The notes beneath the pieces are model-generated. The model saw nothing but the letters and a program-made list of their open reading frames with translations. It ran no database searches and was not told the origin of the DNA. Of a DNA stretch of 64,000 bases, positions 10,642 through 14,259 are shown piece after piece. The translations under genes were made by a program, and so were the position numbers. This DNA is from a phage, in the sequence record PZ179883.1; one strand, written 5' to 3'. Each line of letters starts with the position of its first letter. Positions within the stretch are counted from its first letter, which is position 1.

Positions 10642-11112
10642 TTAATCATGTTTCCACACCCCATCGGTATTTGACCAAAGTCGCTGATTATCTGATCCTC
10701 GCCACAGCTTTTTGGTCGGAAGATTTTTCTCATACTTCCCATCAATAATAACATCAACATATTTAAGCATTTCTAGTTGTTTAATATCTTCAAATTTATA
10801 TCCTGTCCACAACCAAATGCTTTTATTGGGATAAAGATTTTTTACTGTTTGAACAATGCAATGAACAACATCTCGGTTATCAGGATAGAGAGGGTCTCCT
10901 CCAGTTATAGTTAATCCTTCTATATAATCATTATTCAAACATTCAATTAATTGTTCTAGTGTTTCACCAGTGAATGGAACGCCATTTCTAGCATTCCATG
11001 TTGATTTATTATAACAACCTTCGCATTTATGCAAACAACCTGTAACGAAAAGAACGACCCTGCATCCAGGGCCATTCACAAAATCGCAGGGATAAAATCT
11101 ATCGTAATTCAT
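10642..11112 (-). CDS. nrdG: anaerobic ribonucleotide reductase activating protein (radical SAM)
   Basis: 156 aa; CxxxCxxC-type cluster region GCLHKCEGCYN; overlaps nrdD stop. Confidence 0.85.
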   Translation of the reverse strand: MNYDRFYPCDFVNGPGCRVVLFVTGCLHKCEGCYNKSTWNARNGVPFTGETLEQLIECLNNDYIEGLTITGGDPLYPDNRDVVHCIVQTVKNLYPNKSIWLWTGYKFEDIKQLEMLKYVDVIIDGKYEKNLPTKKLWRGSDNQRLWSNTDGVWKHD

Positions 11113-12926
11113 TGGTGTTTAACCCTATGCATGATTTCTTTATTTTTGCCAAGATTAAATCCACGTTCATTCGGATTTCCCAAATAACCACAAGTTCTTC
11201 TTATTGTGTTCATCTTTTTAGGATCAGTTTCTCCACAAATAGAACAAACAAATCCGTTTTCAGTAGGAGTCATTTCATGGGTACTTCCACATGTAAAACA
11301 TTTATCTACTGGCATATTAACACCAAAATAATCTAAATGTTGTGCAGCATAATCCCATACAGCCTCAAGACCCTTTAGGTTATTTTTCATATCAGGAAGT
11401 TCAACATAAGAAATGTGACCACCTGTCGCAATGAAATGATATGGGGCTTCGCGAGAAATCTTTTCAAATGGAGTAATATTTTCTTCTACTGAAACGTGGA
11501 AACTGTTAGTATACCAGCCTTTATCGGTAACATCTTTTACACTTCCATATTTTTCGGTATCAAGTTTACAGAAGCGATAGCACAGGTTTTCAGCAGGAGT
11601 AGAATACAAACTAAAAGCAAATCCAGTTCTTTCAGTCCACTGCTTAAGACGAGCATTCATTTTAGTTAAAATTTCTTGTCCAATATCACGACCGACAAGA
11701 ATATTCAATTCGTGAATACCGATGTATCCTAGGGACACTGAACTTCTACCGTTTTTAAATAACTCAATTATATCGTCATCAGGTTTAAGACGAACCCCGA
11801 ATGCACCTTCTTGGTAAAGAATAGGAGCAACAGTCGCTTTAACTCCTTTTAAGGAACTAATTCTACACATCAATGCTTCAAAACATAAATCCATTCGTTC
11901 ATTGAACAATTCAGTAAATTTCTGTTCATTGAACTGTGTTCCAATATAAGAATCTAACGCAATACGAGGAAGATTCAGTGTTACAACGCCAAGATTATTA
12001 CGTCCATCAAGAATTTCATTACCAGTCGAATCTTTCCATACACTTAAGAAACTGCGGCAACCCATTGGAGAAACAGGAATAGATGAACCTGTGATAGCTT
12101 TATTGTTCTTAGCCGAAATGATGTCAGGATACATTCTTTTACTTGCACACTCTAGAGCAAGCTGCTTAATATCATAGTTCGGATCGTCTTTATAAAGATT
12201 AACACCTTCTTCAACGAACATAACAAGCTTAGGGAAAATAGGAGTTATCCCATCACGACCAAGACCTTTAATACGATTTTTCAGAATTGCTTTCTGAATC
12301 ATTCGTTCAGTCCAGTCAGTTCCCGTACCAAATGTAATTGTTACAAAAGGCGTTTGTCCGTTTGAACTAAAGAGAGTGTTTACTTCATATTCATAAGCTT
12401 GAAATGCATCGTATACGTCTTTTTCTGTTTTAGATTGAGCATAATTCAACGCATCAGCGATTTGCCATTTTTCTGCATCCTCAATATGTTTTGCATAGGT
12501 GCGTTTAACATAAGGAGAAAGTACTTTATCTACATTCGCAAAAGTCGTTCCGCCGTATTGATGGGAAGCAACCTGTGCAGTAATTTGTGCCATAATTGCA
12601 GTAGCAACGCCAATTGATTTAGGAGTTTCAATCTGTGCATTACCGAGCTTAAACCCGTTCTCAAGCATTCCTTTTAAATCTACTAAACAGCAATTAGTAA
12701 ATGGAAGAGCAGGGGAATAATCAATATCATGGAAATGAATAATTCCGCTTTCATGCGCTTTCATAATAAAAGACGGGACCATATTTTTGGCAATGTGTTT
12801 AGACACAATACCAGCCATAAGGTCCCGTTGAGTTGGAAAAACACGAGAATCTTTATTAGCATTCTCGTTTAAAAGGTCTTTATTAGTTTTATGAATCAAT
12901 CCTTCAATTTCTTTTTCAATTGTCAT
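11109..12926 (-). CDS. nrdD: anaerobic ribonucleoside-triphosphate reductase
   Basis: 605 aa continuous ORF; C-terminal glycyl-radical region RTCGYLGNP and zinc ribbon CFTCGS...CSICG. Confidence 0.9.
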   Translation of the reverse strand: MTIEKEIEGLIHKTNKDLLNENANKDSRVFPTQRDLMAGIVSKHIAKNMVPSFIMKAHESGIIHFHDIDYSPALPFTNCCLVDLKGMLENGFKLGNAQIETPKSIGVATAIMAQITAQVASHQYGGTTFANVDKVLSPYVKRTYAKHIEDAEKWQIADALNYAQSKTEKDVYDAFQAYEYEVNTLFSSNGQTPFVTITFGTGTDWTERMIQKAILKNRIKGLGRDGITPIFPKLVMFVEEGVNLYKDDPNYDIKQLALECASKRMYPDIISAKNNKAITGSSIPVSPMGCRSFLSVWKDSTGNEILDGRNNLGVVTLNLPRIALDSYIGTQFNEQKFTELFNERMDLCFEALMCRISSLKGVKATVAPILYQEGAFGVRLKPDDDIIELFKNGRSSVSLGYIGIHELNILVGRDIGQEILTKMNARLKQWTERTGFAFSLYSTPAENLCYRFCKLDTEKYGSVKDVTDKGWYTNSFHVSVEENITPFEKISREAPYHFIATGGHISYVELPDMKNNLKGLEAVWDYAAQHLDYFGVNMPVDKCFTCGSTHEMTPTENGFVCSICGETDPKKMNTIRRTCGYLGNPNERGFNLGKNKEIMHRVKHQ

Positions 12927-13396
12927 TTTAAACTCTTTCTAAGCTGCTTCTTAAATGAAGCTATTAACTGTGTTTTGGTGTCAGATTCATTATATTCAAA
13001 TCCTCTTTGAAGCATCTCGGCCATCATTTCCTCTTTTCCTAAACGAGAAAATTCCTTTGATTTATCTCCAACAAAGTTAGGGTGAATATTGTTTTGGGTG
13101 TAATCGGATTTTAAATAAGTAAGTAAATTTTCTAACCATTCAAGATAATCAACACCTTGTCCCTTTAAGCCAGAACGATTAAATTTATGTTTCATTTGAC
13201 CTTCTGCGGCATTGCAGAGATTACAAAGCAATCCACGTACCTTTCCTGCTTTTGGTCCATTTAATTCATGGTCATGATCAAGATGATTAGCTTGAACATC
13301 AGGATTTAGTTCTCGTTGGCAAATTAAACATTTACCGTTTTGTGCATCATAAAATTTCTGTTTTTCTTCTTTATATAATTTGCCAGTCAATAACAT
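12923..13396 (-). CDS. 49: endonuclease VII (Holliday junction resolvase)
   Basis: 157 aa, MLLTGKLYKEEKQKFYDAQNGKCLICQRELNPDVQANHLDHDHELNG... matches recalled T4 gp49. Confidence 0.9.
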   Translation of the reverse strand: MLLTGKLYKEEKQKFYDAQNGKCLICQRELNPDVQANHLDHDHELNGPKAGKVRGLLCNLCNAAEGQMKHKFNRSGLKGQGVDYLEWLENLLTYLKSDYTQNNIHPNFVGDKSKEFSRLGKEEMMAEMLQRGFEYNESDTKTQLIASFKKQLRKSLK

Positions 13397-13402
13397 AATA
13401 AA

Positions 13403-13427
13403 ACCCTTACCTTAAATAGATAAGGGT
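13403..13427 (-). other. stem-loop immediately upstream of gene 49 start
   Basis: ACCCTTA / TAAGGGT 7 bp stem with 11 nt loop, 6 nt before the gp49 ATG. Confidence 0.4.
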
Positions 13428-13438
13428 ATTTATTATTT

Positions 13439-13490
13439 TTAAGTATTGTAAAACATTCGATGCAATCGTTTATACTGTCGAATCATCTTT
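13439..13490. repeat. direct repeat copy A (about 50 bp, about 84 percent identical to 13652-13700)
   Basis: AAGTATTGTAAAACATTCGATGCAATCGTTTATACTGTCGAATC aligns with copy B. Confidence 0.7.
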
Positions 13491-13615
13491 TTAGTAGGAC
13501 GAGAATAGGTTCCTACGCAAGTGGTCATATGAGGGTCCGTAGAATGTCCTTTAATAAAAAGTTTCCAAACCTTACCGCCATTTAACTTTTCAGTATAAAC
13601 CAATTCGGTTTTCAT
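13439..13615 (-). CDS. small ORF (58 aa) sharing C-terminal 14 aa with pin
   Basis: ATG 13613-13615; MKTELVYTEKLNGGKVWKLF...IRQYKRLHRMFYNT; 3' end lies in a ~50 bp direct repeat of the pin 3' end. Confidence 0.35.
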   Translation of the reverse strand: MKTELVYTEKLNGGKVWKLFIKGHSTDPHMTTCVGTYSRPTKKMIRQYKRLHRMFYNT

Positions 13616-13651
13616 TAAAATGTCCTGTCAGAAAAAGAATTTTGAGTTTTT

Positions 13652-13700
13652 TCAAGTATTATAAAACATTTGATGCAATCGCTTATATTGCCGAATCTTT
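13652..13700. repeat. direct repeat copy B (3' end of pin)
   Basis: AAGTATTATAAAACATTTGATGCAATCGCTTATATTGCCGAATC. Confidence 0.7.
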
Positions 13701-14137
13701 TGGTCAGAAAAAGAAATTTGAGTTTCAAGCCATTCAATGTACTCTGCGGCAGCTTGCATCAGGTTACCTTCATAGCCATCGTTATTTTCTTGCGCAGCTA
13801 ATTTAGCTAATGCGTATGAAATACGTTCACCTTGAAAAGAGGCTTCAGGCTTCTGAACATCTTGGCTAGTTCTCTCTACAACTTCTTCAATTTCGCCATT
13901 TTCGACTGATTCAGTATTCCACAAGCACCAATACGTAATTGGCTTATCGTAGATGTTAATAATCTTTCCGTCGGAAAGTTCAATTTCAATAATTCCAGTA
14001 TCAGGTTCTATATCATCTTCACATTCTTTTGCAAGTTCACGAACTTTAAAGACAGTACCTGCACTAAGTTCCGGCCAGTAATTACACAGCCCTATATCAA
14101 CACGATTAATTCTAAACCACTTATCTACTGTAATCAT
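13652..14137 (-). CDS. pin: PinA-like protein (candidate Lon protease inhibitor)
   Basis: 161 aa from ATG 14135-14137 (track start 14155 is TTG); size and position next to gene 49 match T4 pin; no motif confirmation. Confidence 0.5.
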   Translation of the reverse strand: MITVDKWFRINRVDIGLCNYWPELSAGTVFKVRELAKECEDDIEPDTGIIEIELSDGKIINIYDKPITYWCLWNTESVENGEIEEVVERTSQDVQKPEASFQGERISYALAKLAAQENNDGYEGNLMQAAAEYIEWLETQISFSDQKIRQYKRLHQMFYNT

Positions 14138-14259
14138 GTCCCATCTCCATATCAATTAAGTCATTTATCGTTGGTTCATTATATACTGTTTCTTCATCAG
14201 TGTAAACCGGTTCTTCCGGCTCTGGCTCTACAGTTTCCCATCTAGCCGCCCACCAAGGT

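What the first reader, a model, noticed from the sequence alone, without database searches (positions are those of the whole stretch)
13439..13700. Partial duplication of the pin 3' end creates a 58-aa ORF with the same C-terminus
About 50 bp at 13439-13490 repeat the last about 50 bp of the pin-like gene (13652-13700) at about 84 percent identity, so the 58-aa ORF ends IRQYKRLHRMFYNT versus pin's IRQYKRLHQMFYNT. This is a footprint of illegitimate recombination or a decaying duplicate next to endonuclease VII.
Basis: seen in the sequence. Interest (0 to 1): 0.5.

Follow-up and report, generated by a model that had tools for sequence, protein, structure and literature searches.

The report
Pin tail copied from neighbouring gene
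The repeat is real, but it runs the other way round: the 58-codon gene is an old, intact small phage gene, and the Lon-protease inhibitor gene pin (as in phage T4) carries a copy of that gene's last 15 codons, left over from an ordinary deletion-and-recombination history.

Summary
13441-13484 and 13654-13697 match at 39/44 bases; the best of 200 shuffles reached 29/44.

ORF58 (13439-13615, minus strand) is a full-length member of Pfam DUF7279 / PHROG 3272. It is under purifying selection (dN/dS 0.12-0.31). It sits directly upstream of gene 49 in four Tevenvirinae genera, including phages whose pin has no such tail or that have no full pin.

The pin family models stop at residue 141-146. Residues 147-161 match the DUF7279 C-terminus. 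So the tail belongs to ORF58, and T4-type pin gained it by an in-frame deletion that fused pin to codon 45 of the neighbour.

Tequatrovirus genomes show four layouts:
- untailed pin plus ORF58 (ancestral, about 73 records);
- fused pin alone (T4, T2, teqhal);
- untailed pin alone (BP32);
- this window's layout, in 114 records: fused pin, a 36-nt relic of the old pin end, and an intact ORF58.

The window's layout needs one more illegitimate join in an A-run. This is ordinary phage genome plasticity. The function of DUF7279 remains unknown.

The parts
13652..14137 (-). pin (PinA-type inhibitor of host Lon protease), 161 aa, fused T4-type form
   Evidence: Pfam Inhibitor_I24 scores 157.9 bits (cut-off 27) and covers aa 4-141. 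PHROG 2167 covers aa 1-146. The gene is 92-98% identical to 161-aa pins of Tequatrovirus.
13652..13697 (-). Repeat copy B: the last 14 codons plus stop of pin (IRQYKRLHQMFYNT*). This is the captured copy of the DUF7279 C-terminal helix.
   Evidence: It matches B' at 39/44. Pin aa 147-161 hit PHROG 3272 positions 44-58. It is identical, apart from one TAT/TAC difference, to the pin tail of the type III phage teqhal.
13698..13702 (-). Fusion junction (codons Q147-K148, CAA AAG) between pin's ...SFSD and the captured tail
   Evidence: Alignments A1 and A7. T4 and T2 have GAC CGA|ATG ATT at the same position and with the same length. Intermediates DQMIRQ exist (P0012, P0013).
13703..13729 (-). Repeat copy A': CTTGAAACTCAAATTTCTTTTTCTGAC inside pin (encodes LETQISFSD)
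   Evidence: It matches A at 22/23. It is present in all Tequatrovirus pins aligned.
13616..13651 (-). Spacer made of repeat copy A. It is a relic of the ancestral pin 3' end (reads ...KTQNSFSDRTF, with the TAA overlapping the ORF58 ATG) and holds the ORF58 Shine-Dalgarno AGGA at 13623-13626.
   Evidence: It aligns with the true pin 3' end of type I phages: KIT03 and GRNsp7 (...SFSDRAF*, TAATG) and ZCEC15 (...SFSDRPF*, also with an AGG codon).
13439..13615 (-). ORF58: intact DUF7279 / PHROG 3272 gene, function unknown
   Evidence: Pfam PF23945 scores 62.7 bits (cut-off 24.5) over aa 7-56. PHROG 3272 gives E 3.4e-34 over aa 1-58. dN/dS is 0.12-0.31. It is found in 323 phage records and is annotated as a hypothetical protein in JB75.
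13439..13484 (-). Repeat copy B': the native 3' end of ORF58 (IRQYKRLHRMFYNT*). It lies within the predicted C-terminal helix, residues 42-56.
   Evidence: I45, R46, K49, R50, H52, R53 and F55 are invariant in the family alignment.
13395..13436 (-). Conserved hairpin between ORF58 and gene 49 that pairs with the gene 49 Shine-Dalgarno and the first bases of its AUG. It sets the right-hand limit of every deletion seen.
   Evidence: The RNA fold gives -18.1 kcal/mol with z = -4.17. The scan calls it terminator-like. It is nearly invariant across four genera and is annotated as a terminator in JB75.
12923..13396 (-). Gene 49 (endonuclease VII), 157 aa; the downstream anchor of the locus

Best explanation
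ORF58 is an intact small phage gene of the DUF7279 family whose normal position is directly upstream of gene 49. The ancestral layout (type I) is pin, ending ...SFSDRxF with its TAA overlapping the next ATG, then ORF58, then the hairpin, then gene 49. An in-frame deletion removed pin's last few codons, its stop and the first 44 codons of ORF58. This welded pin codon 146/147 to ORF58 codon 45. The result is the 161-aa T4-type pin, whose last 15 residues are the C-terminal helix of the lost neighbour (type III: T4, T2, teqhal).

The window (type II) holds a fused pin identical in its tail to that of type III phages. After it comes a 36-nt relic of an unfused pin 3' end, and then a complete ORF58. 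One additional illegitimate join explains this. The end of the fused pin (...AATACTTGAAAA) was joined to ...(CTTGA)AACTCAAA... of a type I genome, inside an A-run flanked by the shared CTTGAAA. The other crossover was ordinary homologous exchange in the hairpin / gene 49 region.

The two direct repeats are therefore fossils of a deletion followed by re-acquisition (or retention) of the gene. They are also substrates for further loss by homologous recombination: B x B' gives type III, and A' x A would give type I.

Shown: the repeat, the family memberships, the four layouts and the junction sequences. Inferred: the order of events and the join mechanism.
For: - Family models: ORF58 matches DUF7279 and PHROG 3272 over its full length, tail included. 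The pin models end at aa 141/146, and pin aa 147-161 hit PHROG 3272 positions 44-58.
- Outgroups: Mosigvirus ESCO47 and NBG1 have an untailed pin (...YLERRLS*) followed by a 59-aa orthologue ending KKMIRQYKRFHRDFYNVY. Dhakavirus VR5 and Gaprivervirus DK-13 have the orthologue upstream of gene 49, preceded by a 59-aa gene resembling the C-terminal part of pin, which ends ...RFSDKAF*/...RFSDEAF*.
- Type I exists within Tequatrovirus. KIT03, GRNsp7 and ZCEC15 have a 148-aa pin ending SFSDRAF*/SFSDRPF* with a TAATG overlap onto ORF58. Database pins of 148 aa end the same way.
- Type III: T4 and T2 read GAC CGA|ATG ATT, a clean join of the type I pin sequence to ORF58 codon 45. Teqhal has exactly the window's DQKIRQ tail directly before gene 49.
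- The type II junction is found in 114 records. Their ORF58 is nearly uniform: 112 records are at least 99% identical at protein level.
- The spacer relic keeps the old reading frame and the TAA/ATG overlap. It uses an AGG arginine codon, as does the functional type I pin end of ZCEC15.
- Losses of this gene recur with different end points and 3-6-nt microhomologies: BP32 (AAT), the Mosigvirus contig L017 (ACGTTT; in-frame, pin ...LERRFHRDFYNVY), NHEP29 (GTTT) and p000v.
- Shinka (type III) has the T4 junction joined to the window-type B' haplotype (AAA, CGA, TAA stop, four Ts before the gene 49 ATG). This is what a B x B' exchange predicts.
- ORF58 is under purifying selection, with dN/dS 0.12-0.31.
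Against: - The order of events is not resolved. Junction variants (DRM, DQM, DQK) occur in both type II and type III, so they cannot polarise the two layouts.
- The predicted join at CTTGAAA does not reproduce the sequence exactly. The window has six As where a simple CTTGAAA crossover gives three, so the join must lie inside the A-run or was followed by slippage.
- No sampled type I phage carries the window's ORF58 variant (GHSTDPH) or a ...DRTF* pin end, so the proposed donor is hypothetical.
- The T4-type deletion shows no microhomology in present-day sequences.
- Record counts for types I, III and IV are estimates from coverage and identity bands of BLAST summaries, not a genome-by-genome classification.
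- There is no expression evidence for ORF58 in any phage.
Confidence: 0.8

Rival explanations
1. Same components, different order. A type I genome first underwent a tandem duplication of the unit 'pin 3' end + ORF58'. The first ORF58 copy was then deleted in frame, giving type II. All type III genomes (T4 included) descend from type II by loss of the second copy.
For: - The B/A join is the same under this model.
- Deletions at this locus are demonstrably frequent.
- Shinka looks like a B x B' deletion product of a type II genome.
- A and A' differ by only 1 of 23 bases.
Against: - It needs three rearrangements instead of two.
- Type II ORF58 copies are almost uniform (112 of 117 at 99% or more), while fused pins without ORF58 are more numerous and more varied. 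This suggests type II is the younger layout.
- Teqhal-type type III keeps B's TGA stop followed at once by the B'-side flank. A homologous B x B' crossover could produce that only within a 4-nt stretch.
Confidence: 0.3
2. One reading: part of pin's 3' end was duplicated downstream, which created ORF58 or left it as a decaying duplicate.
For: The repeat itself and the near-identical C-termini.
Against: - ORF58 is a full-length DUF7279 / PHROG 3272 member, and the tail is part of the family model.
- Orthologues exist where pin lacks the tail or is absent.
- dN/dS is 0.12-0.31.
- The pin family models exclude the tail.
Confidence: 0.03
3. The shared helix is a functional module kept alike in both proteins by selection or gene conversion, for example because both bind the same partner. 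On this view it is not a passive relic.
For: - All fused pins in the protein database keep the full 161-aa length; no intermediate lengths are listed.
- The QYKRLHQMFYNT core is conserved among the fused pins seen.
- An independent in-frame fusion occurred in a Mosigvirus-like contig.
Against: - Pin's copy carries changes at positions invariant in the DUF7279 family: R53 becomes Q in nearly all fused pins, and R46 becomes Q in T4 and T2.
- Untailed pins of 148 aa and 136-137 aa are common and evidently sufficient.
- Other deletions removed the gene without any fusion.
- B and B' differ at 5 of 44 bases, so they are not being homogenised.
Confidence: 0.1

Closest known systems
T4 pin / PinA, inhibitor of E. 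coli Lon protease (NP_049694; Pfam PF10465 Inhibitor_I24)
   Same: The window's pin has the same 161-aa fused form, 92-98% identical to database Tequatrovirus pins. It has the same position upstream of gene 49 and the same tail length.
   Different: In T4 the gene abuts the gene 49 hairpin. Here a 36-nt relic and an intact ORF58 lie between them. The junction codons are DQK-IRQ here and DRM-IQQ in T4.
DUF7279 (PF23945) / PHROG 3272 small proteins of T4-like phages
   Same: ORF58 is a full-length member, with predicted strands at residues 2-9, 15-22 and 31-37 and a basic helix at 42-56. It sits at the usual place upstream of gene 49.
   Different: Nothing about the gene itself differs. What differs is that its upstream neighbour carries a second copy of its last 15 codons. 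The family's function is unknown: no paper mentions it, no solved structure matches and the fold searches were uninformative.
Illegitimate recombination and deletion between short direct repeats in T4-related genomes, discussed as a source of their diversification (Petrov et al. 2010, PMC2993671)
   Same: The junctions carry 3-7-nt microhomologies (AAT, GTTT, ACGTTT, A-run/CTTGAAA). There are no transposon or site-specific signatures, and the events lie between conserved genes.
   Different: Here one deletion happened to be in frame and gave a studied protein (PinA) a foreign C-terminal helix. A later join put the donor gene back beside it.
Independent pin-DUF7279 fusion in a Mosigvirus-like contig (P0038, locus L017)
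   Same: It is also an in-frame deletion of the downstream DUF7279 gene that leaves its C-terminal residues on pin.
   Different: The junction differs (ACGTTT microhomology), only 9 residues are captured (FHRDFYNVY), and it is seen on a single contig. No intact copy is retained downstream.

Membership tests
DUF7279 (Pfam PF23945) / PHROG 3272, for ORF58 | Score above the curated Pfam gathering threshold, with near full-length profile coverage | tested here: met
   62.7 bits against a cut-off of 24.5, covering aa 7-56 on profile positions 1-53 of 53. PHROG 3272 gives E 3.4e-34 over 1-58 of 59. All 10 database homologues carry PF23945.
DUF7279 (Pfam PF23945) / PHROG 3272, for ORF58 | Conserved C-terminal basic motif RPTK-x-IR-xx-KR-x-HR-x-F | tested here: met
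   R39, P40, T41, K42, I45, R46, K49, R50, H52, R53 and F55 are invariant in alignment A3 and present in ORF58.
DUF7279 (Pfam PF23945) / PHROG 3272, for ORF58 | Evolves as a protein-coding gene | tested here: met
   Pairwise dN/dS is 0.12-0.31 across Tequatrovirus, Dhakavirus, Gaprivervirus and Mosigvirus.
PinA peptidase inhibitor (Pfam PF10465 Inhibitor_I24), for pin | Score above the gathering threshold | tested here: met
   157.9 bits against a cut-off of 27, covering aa 4-141. PHROG 2167 gives E 9.4e-65 over aa 1-146.
PinA peptidase inhibitor (Pfam PF10465 Inhibitor_I24), for pin | The C-terminal 15 residues belong to the family domain | tested here: not met
   Residues 147-161 lie outside both pin models and instead match PHROG 3272 positions 44-58. 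Pins of 148 aa and 136-137 aa lack these residues.
PinA peptidase inhibitor (Pfam PF10465 Inhibitor_I24), for pin | Inhibits Lon protease | not testable with these tools
   Biochemistry exists only for T4 PinA (PMC8835725 and references cited there).
   Outgroup genomes and the family models show the opposite polarity.
Mobile regulatory cassette of T4-type phages (early promoter plus stem-loop flanking shuffled ORFs; Arbiol et al. 2010, recalled from memory) | An early-promoter-like site plus stem-loop at the borders of the inserted ORF | tested here: not met
   No promoter-like site was found between pin and ORF58. The only hairpin is the conserved one before gene 49. The nearest strong promoter-like site is upstream of pin at 14206-14178.
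Known RNA family (Rfam) in the repeat or spacer | A covariance-model hit at or near the gathering score | tested here: not met
   There were only two sub-threshold hits (26.5 and 21.6 bits against a gathering score of 50; E 0.14 and 0.59).

The most novel reading that the evidence does not exclude
The captured 15-residue helix is not a passive relic but a working module. On this reading DUF7279 proteins use it to bind a host target (for instance Lon or another AAA+ machine, or nucleic acid). T4-type PinA would have gained or improved its activity by capturing it, which would explain why the fused form dominates among sequenced Tequatrovirus genomes.
Probability: 0.08. Interest if true: 0.6.

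Novelty: new member of a known kind. Interest (0 to 1): 0.3.

Why it matters
It explains where the last 15 residues of T4 PinA come from. PinA is a biochemically used Lon inhibitor, and these residues are the C-terminal helix of a deleted neighbouring gene. They lie outside the inhibitor domain, which matters when designing constructs or interpreting structures. The locus also gives a compact natural series (four layouts and at least five independent deletions) for studying microhomology-mediated deletion and gene fusion in T4-like phages. Finally, it corrects the annotation logic: ORF58 is a real conserved gene, not a pseudogene fragment. Beyond that, it is ordinary phage genome plasticity.

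Tried and rejected
- The DNA search with up to 3 mismatches found only the query copy, because the second copy has 5 mismatches. I replaced it with a scripted ungapped scan and shuffles.
- The search for related loci on IMG/VR gave only 6 loci, too few for a survey.
- Most fetched loci did not appear in the script sandbox, so alignments were made with DNA alignment.
- The exhaustive single-sequence search of ORF58 found only 8 representatives, 5 of them long repetitive proteins with local matches. It gave no functional lead.
- The AlphaFold model has three strands and one helix. The best model has pLDDT 81.7, but the other four score 52-63. Foldseek against PDB gave nothing below E 0.27. Against viral models the only hit was an uncharacterised Salmonella phage S16 protein. 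The PDB sequence search found nothing.
- Rfam gave no significant hit.
- Literature: no paper mentions DUF7279. The PinA papers that are held say nothing about its C-terminus. Skorupski 1988 and Barth 1988 are not held.
- Chance similarity was rejected by the shuffles.
- A promoter/stem-loop cassette was rejected by the scan.
- Polarising type II against type III by junction variant failed, because the DQK, DQM and DRM junctions occur in both layouts.

Full report
**Context.** The window is a Tequatrovirus (T4-like) genome segment. The 1.3-kb region around the finding is 99.2% identical to Salmonella phage pSe_SNUABM_01 and matches 691 phage records. All genes here are on the minus strand: nrdD (11109-12926), gene 49 / endonuclease VII (12923-13396), a 58-codon ORF (13439-13615), pin (13652-14137), then homologues of 49.1 and nrdC.

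**Observation.** The repeat is real.
- 13441-13484 and 13654-13697 match at 39/44.
- The best match to the 44-mer in 200 shuffled windows was 29/44.
- The two proteins end MIRQYKRLHRMFYNT and KIRQYKRLHQMFYNT.
- Among 1178 ORFs of the window, only pin resembles ORF58 (E 6.4e-5).
A (13627-13649) lies in the spacer between pin and ORF58, and A' (13703-13725) lies inside pin. They match at 22/23, against a best shuffle of 19/23.
- In gene orientation the order is: pin body, A', 5-nt junction, B, A, ORF58 body, B', hairpin, gene 49.

**Which gene owns the tail?** The tail belongs to ORF58.
- ORF58 matches Pfam DUF7279 (62.7 bits, cut-off 24.5, aa 7-56) and PHROG 3272 over residues 1-58.
- The tail residues I45, R46, K49, R50, H52, R53 and F55 are invariant in the family alignment.
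- Pin matches Inhibitor_I24 only over aa 4-141 and PHROG 2167 over aa 1-146. Its last 15 residues hit PHROG 3272 positions 44-58.
- In Mosigvirus (ESCO47, NBG1), pin ends ...EYIEYLERRLS with no tail. It is followed by a 59-aa orthologue ending KKMIRQYKRFHRDFYNVY.
- In Dhakavirus VR5 and Gaprivervirus DK-13, the orthologue sits in the same place upstream of gene 49. It is preceded by a 59-aa gene that resembles the C-terminal part of pin and ends ...WLEAQLRFSDKAF.
- ORF58 evolves as a coding gene, with dN/dS 0.12-0.31 in all pairwise comparisons across the four genera.
- By tblastn its body is present in 323 phage records.
- It has an AGGA Shine-Dalgarno 7 nt before the ATG. No promoter-like site lies between it and pin, so it is presumably co-transcribed with pin.

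**Four layouts within Tequatrovirus.**
- Type I (KIT03, GRNsp7, ZCEC15): pin is 148 aa and ends ...SFSDRAF or ...SFSDRPF. Its TAA overlaps the ORF58 ATG (TAATG).
- Type III (T4, T2, Shinka, teqhal; T6 by partial match): ORF58 is absent. Pin is 161 aa and abuts the hairpin before gene 49. In T4 and T2 the sequence GAC CGA|ATG ATT is a clean join of the type I pin sequence to ORF58 codon 45.
- Type IV (BP32): pin is 148 aa with its own stop, and ORF58 has been removed by a deletion at an AAT microhomology.
- Type II (this window, JB75, RB33 and others): fused pin plus relic A plus intact ORF58.

**Counts.** A 60-nt probe across the B/A junction finds type II in 114 records. Protein-identity bands of the ORF58 body give about 117 type II-like records, about 73 type I, 83 Dhakavirus/Gaprivervirus and 50 Mosigvirus. 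A probe for 'fused pin directly before the hairpin' gives several hundred full-length matches and about 80 half-length, type IV-like matches. Apart from the type II junction count, these class sizes are estimates from BLAST summary bands.

**One fusion or several?** The fused-pin junctions DRMIQQ (T4, T2), DQMIRQ (P0012, P0013) and DQKIRQ (window, teqhal) have the same length and differ by single substitutions. One fusion event followed by point changes is therefore the simplest reading. An independent fusion exists in a Mosigvirus-like contig. There, pin ...LERR is joined to FHRDFYNVY through an ACGTTT microhomology, and gene 49 follows directly. NHEP29 (GTTT microhomology, leaving a 35-nt non-coding tail remnant) and p000v (clean loss) are further independent deletions. 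Every deletion stops short of the conserved hairpin region.

**Origin of the window's layout.**
- The window's pin tail is the same as that of the type III phage teqhal.
- The spacer after the pin stop reads, in the old pin frame, ...KTQNSFSDRTF. Its TAA overlaps the ORF58 ATG, so the spacer is a pin 3' end that no longer belongs to a gene.
- The spacer's AGG arginine codon is also used in the functional type I pin end of ZCEC15.
- The join between B and A lies in an A-run. Both partners share CTTGAAA (...AATACTTGAAAA at the end of the tail and ...TGGCTTGAAACTC in pin).
- I therefore favour this history: a fused-pin genome recombined with a type I genome, illegitimately at this short homology and homologously in the hairpin / gene 49 region.
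- The alternative is a tandem duplication in a type I genome, followed by deletion of the first ORF58 copy, with type III descending from type II. It cannot be excluded.
- Against the alternative, type II ORF58 copies are nearly uniform, and teqhal keeps B's TGA followed at once by the B'-side flank.
- Traffic in the other direction is visible. Shinka (type III) combines the T4 junction with the window-type B' haplotype and its downstream T-run, as expected from a B x B' exchange.

**Function.** What DUF7279 does is unknown.
- The model predicts three strands and a basic C-terminal helix at residues 42-56. The best model has pLDDT 81.7, but the other four are poor.
- Fold and sequence searches against solved and predicted structures gave no informative match.
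- No paper mentions the family.
- In pin, the captured helix carries substitutions at family-invariant positions: R53 to Q generally, and R46 to Q in T4 and T2.
- Untailed pins are common.
- I therefore consider the tail a tolerated passenger rather than a working module, but this is inference.

**Comparison with what is known.** Illegitimate recombination has been proposed as a source of diversity in T4-related genomes (PMC2993671). PinA is a known Lon inhibitor (PMC8835725). Within the papers I could search, nothing describes the tail of pin as derived from a neighbouring gene.

**Verdict.** The feature is real. The mechanism class is ordinary, and the specific history appears undescribed. 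Interest is modest.

Noticed in passing
window 13395-13436 (minus strand): A strong hairpin (-18.1 kcal/mol, z -4.17) pairs with the gene 49 Shine-Dalgarno and the first bases of its AUG. An ATAAATA box precedes it. The whole segment is nearly invariant across four genera. It resembles the translational control of T4 gene 49 described by Barth et al. 1988 (recalled from memory; that paper is not held).
   Followed up: partly
L017 1329-1499; L009 1840-2010; L018/L019 1501-2076: Mosigvirus-like phages carry a second DUF7279 gene upstream of pin. On two metagenome contigs it is fused in frame to the N-terminus of pin, giving the 191-aa protein P0037.
   Followed up: partly
L004 (Gaprivervirus DK-13) 1715-2196: The N-terminal-like and C-terminal-like parts of pin appear as two separate genes in swapped order: a 59-aa gene resembling pin's C-terminal part, then a 100-aa gene with WPEL...FWCFW motifs resembling its N-terminal part. 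ORF61 (DUF7279) follows.
   Followed up: no
L020, L021, L022, L017: The DUF7279 gene between pin and gene 49 has been deleted independently at least four more times. The end points differ and carry 3-6-nt microhomologies, and every deletion spares the hairpin.
   Followed up: yes
window 14178-14206 (minus strand): A near-consensus sigma-70-type site (TTTACA, 17-nt spacer, TATAAT; 11 of 12 matches) lies inside the 49.1 homologue, upstream of pin. It is a likely early promoter for pin and ORF58.
   Followed up: no
window 11109-12926 (minus strand): nrdD is uninterrupted here (605 aa). In T4 it is split by the I-TevII intron, and JB75 has a homing endonuclease gene in this region.
   Followed up: no
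protein P0030 (ENA contig, 1494 nt): A 142-aa protein joins the first ~83 residues of pin to a Peptidase_S24 (LexA/UmuD-like) C-terminus. It could be a real chimera or an assembly artefact.
   Followed up: no
protein P0045 (1487 aa): ORF58 residues 13-46 match 19 separate stretches of a long repetitive protein (E 3.3e-18). This suggests the N-terminal strands resemble a common beta-hairpin repeat.
   Followed up: no
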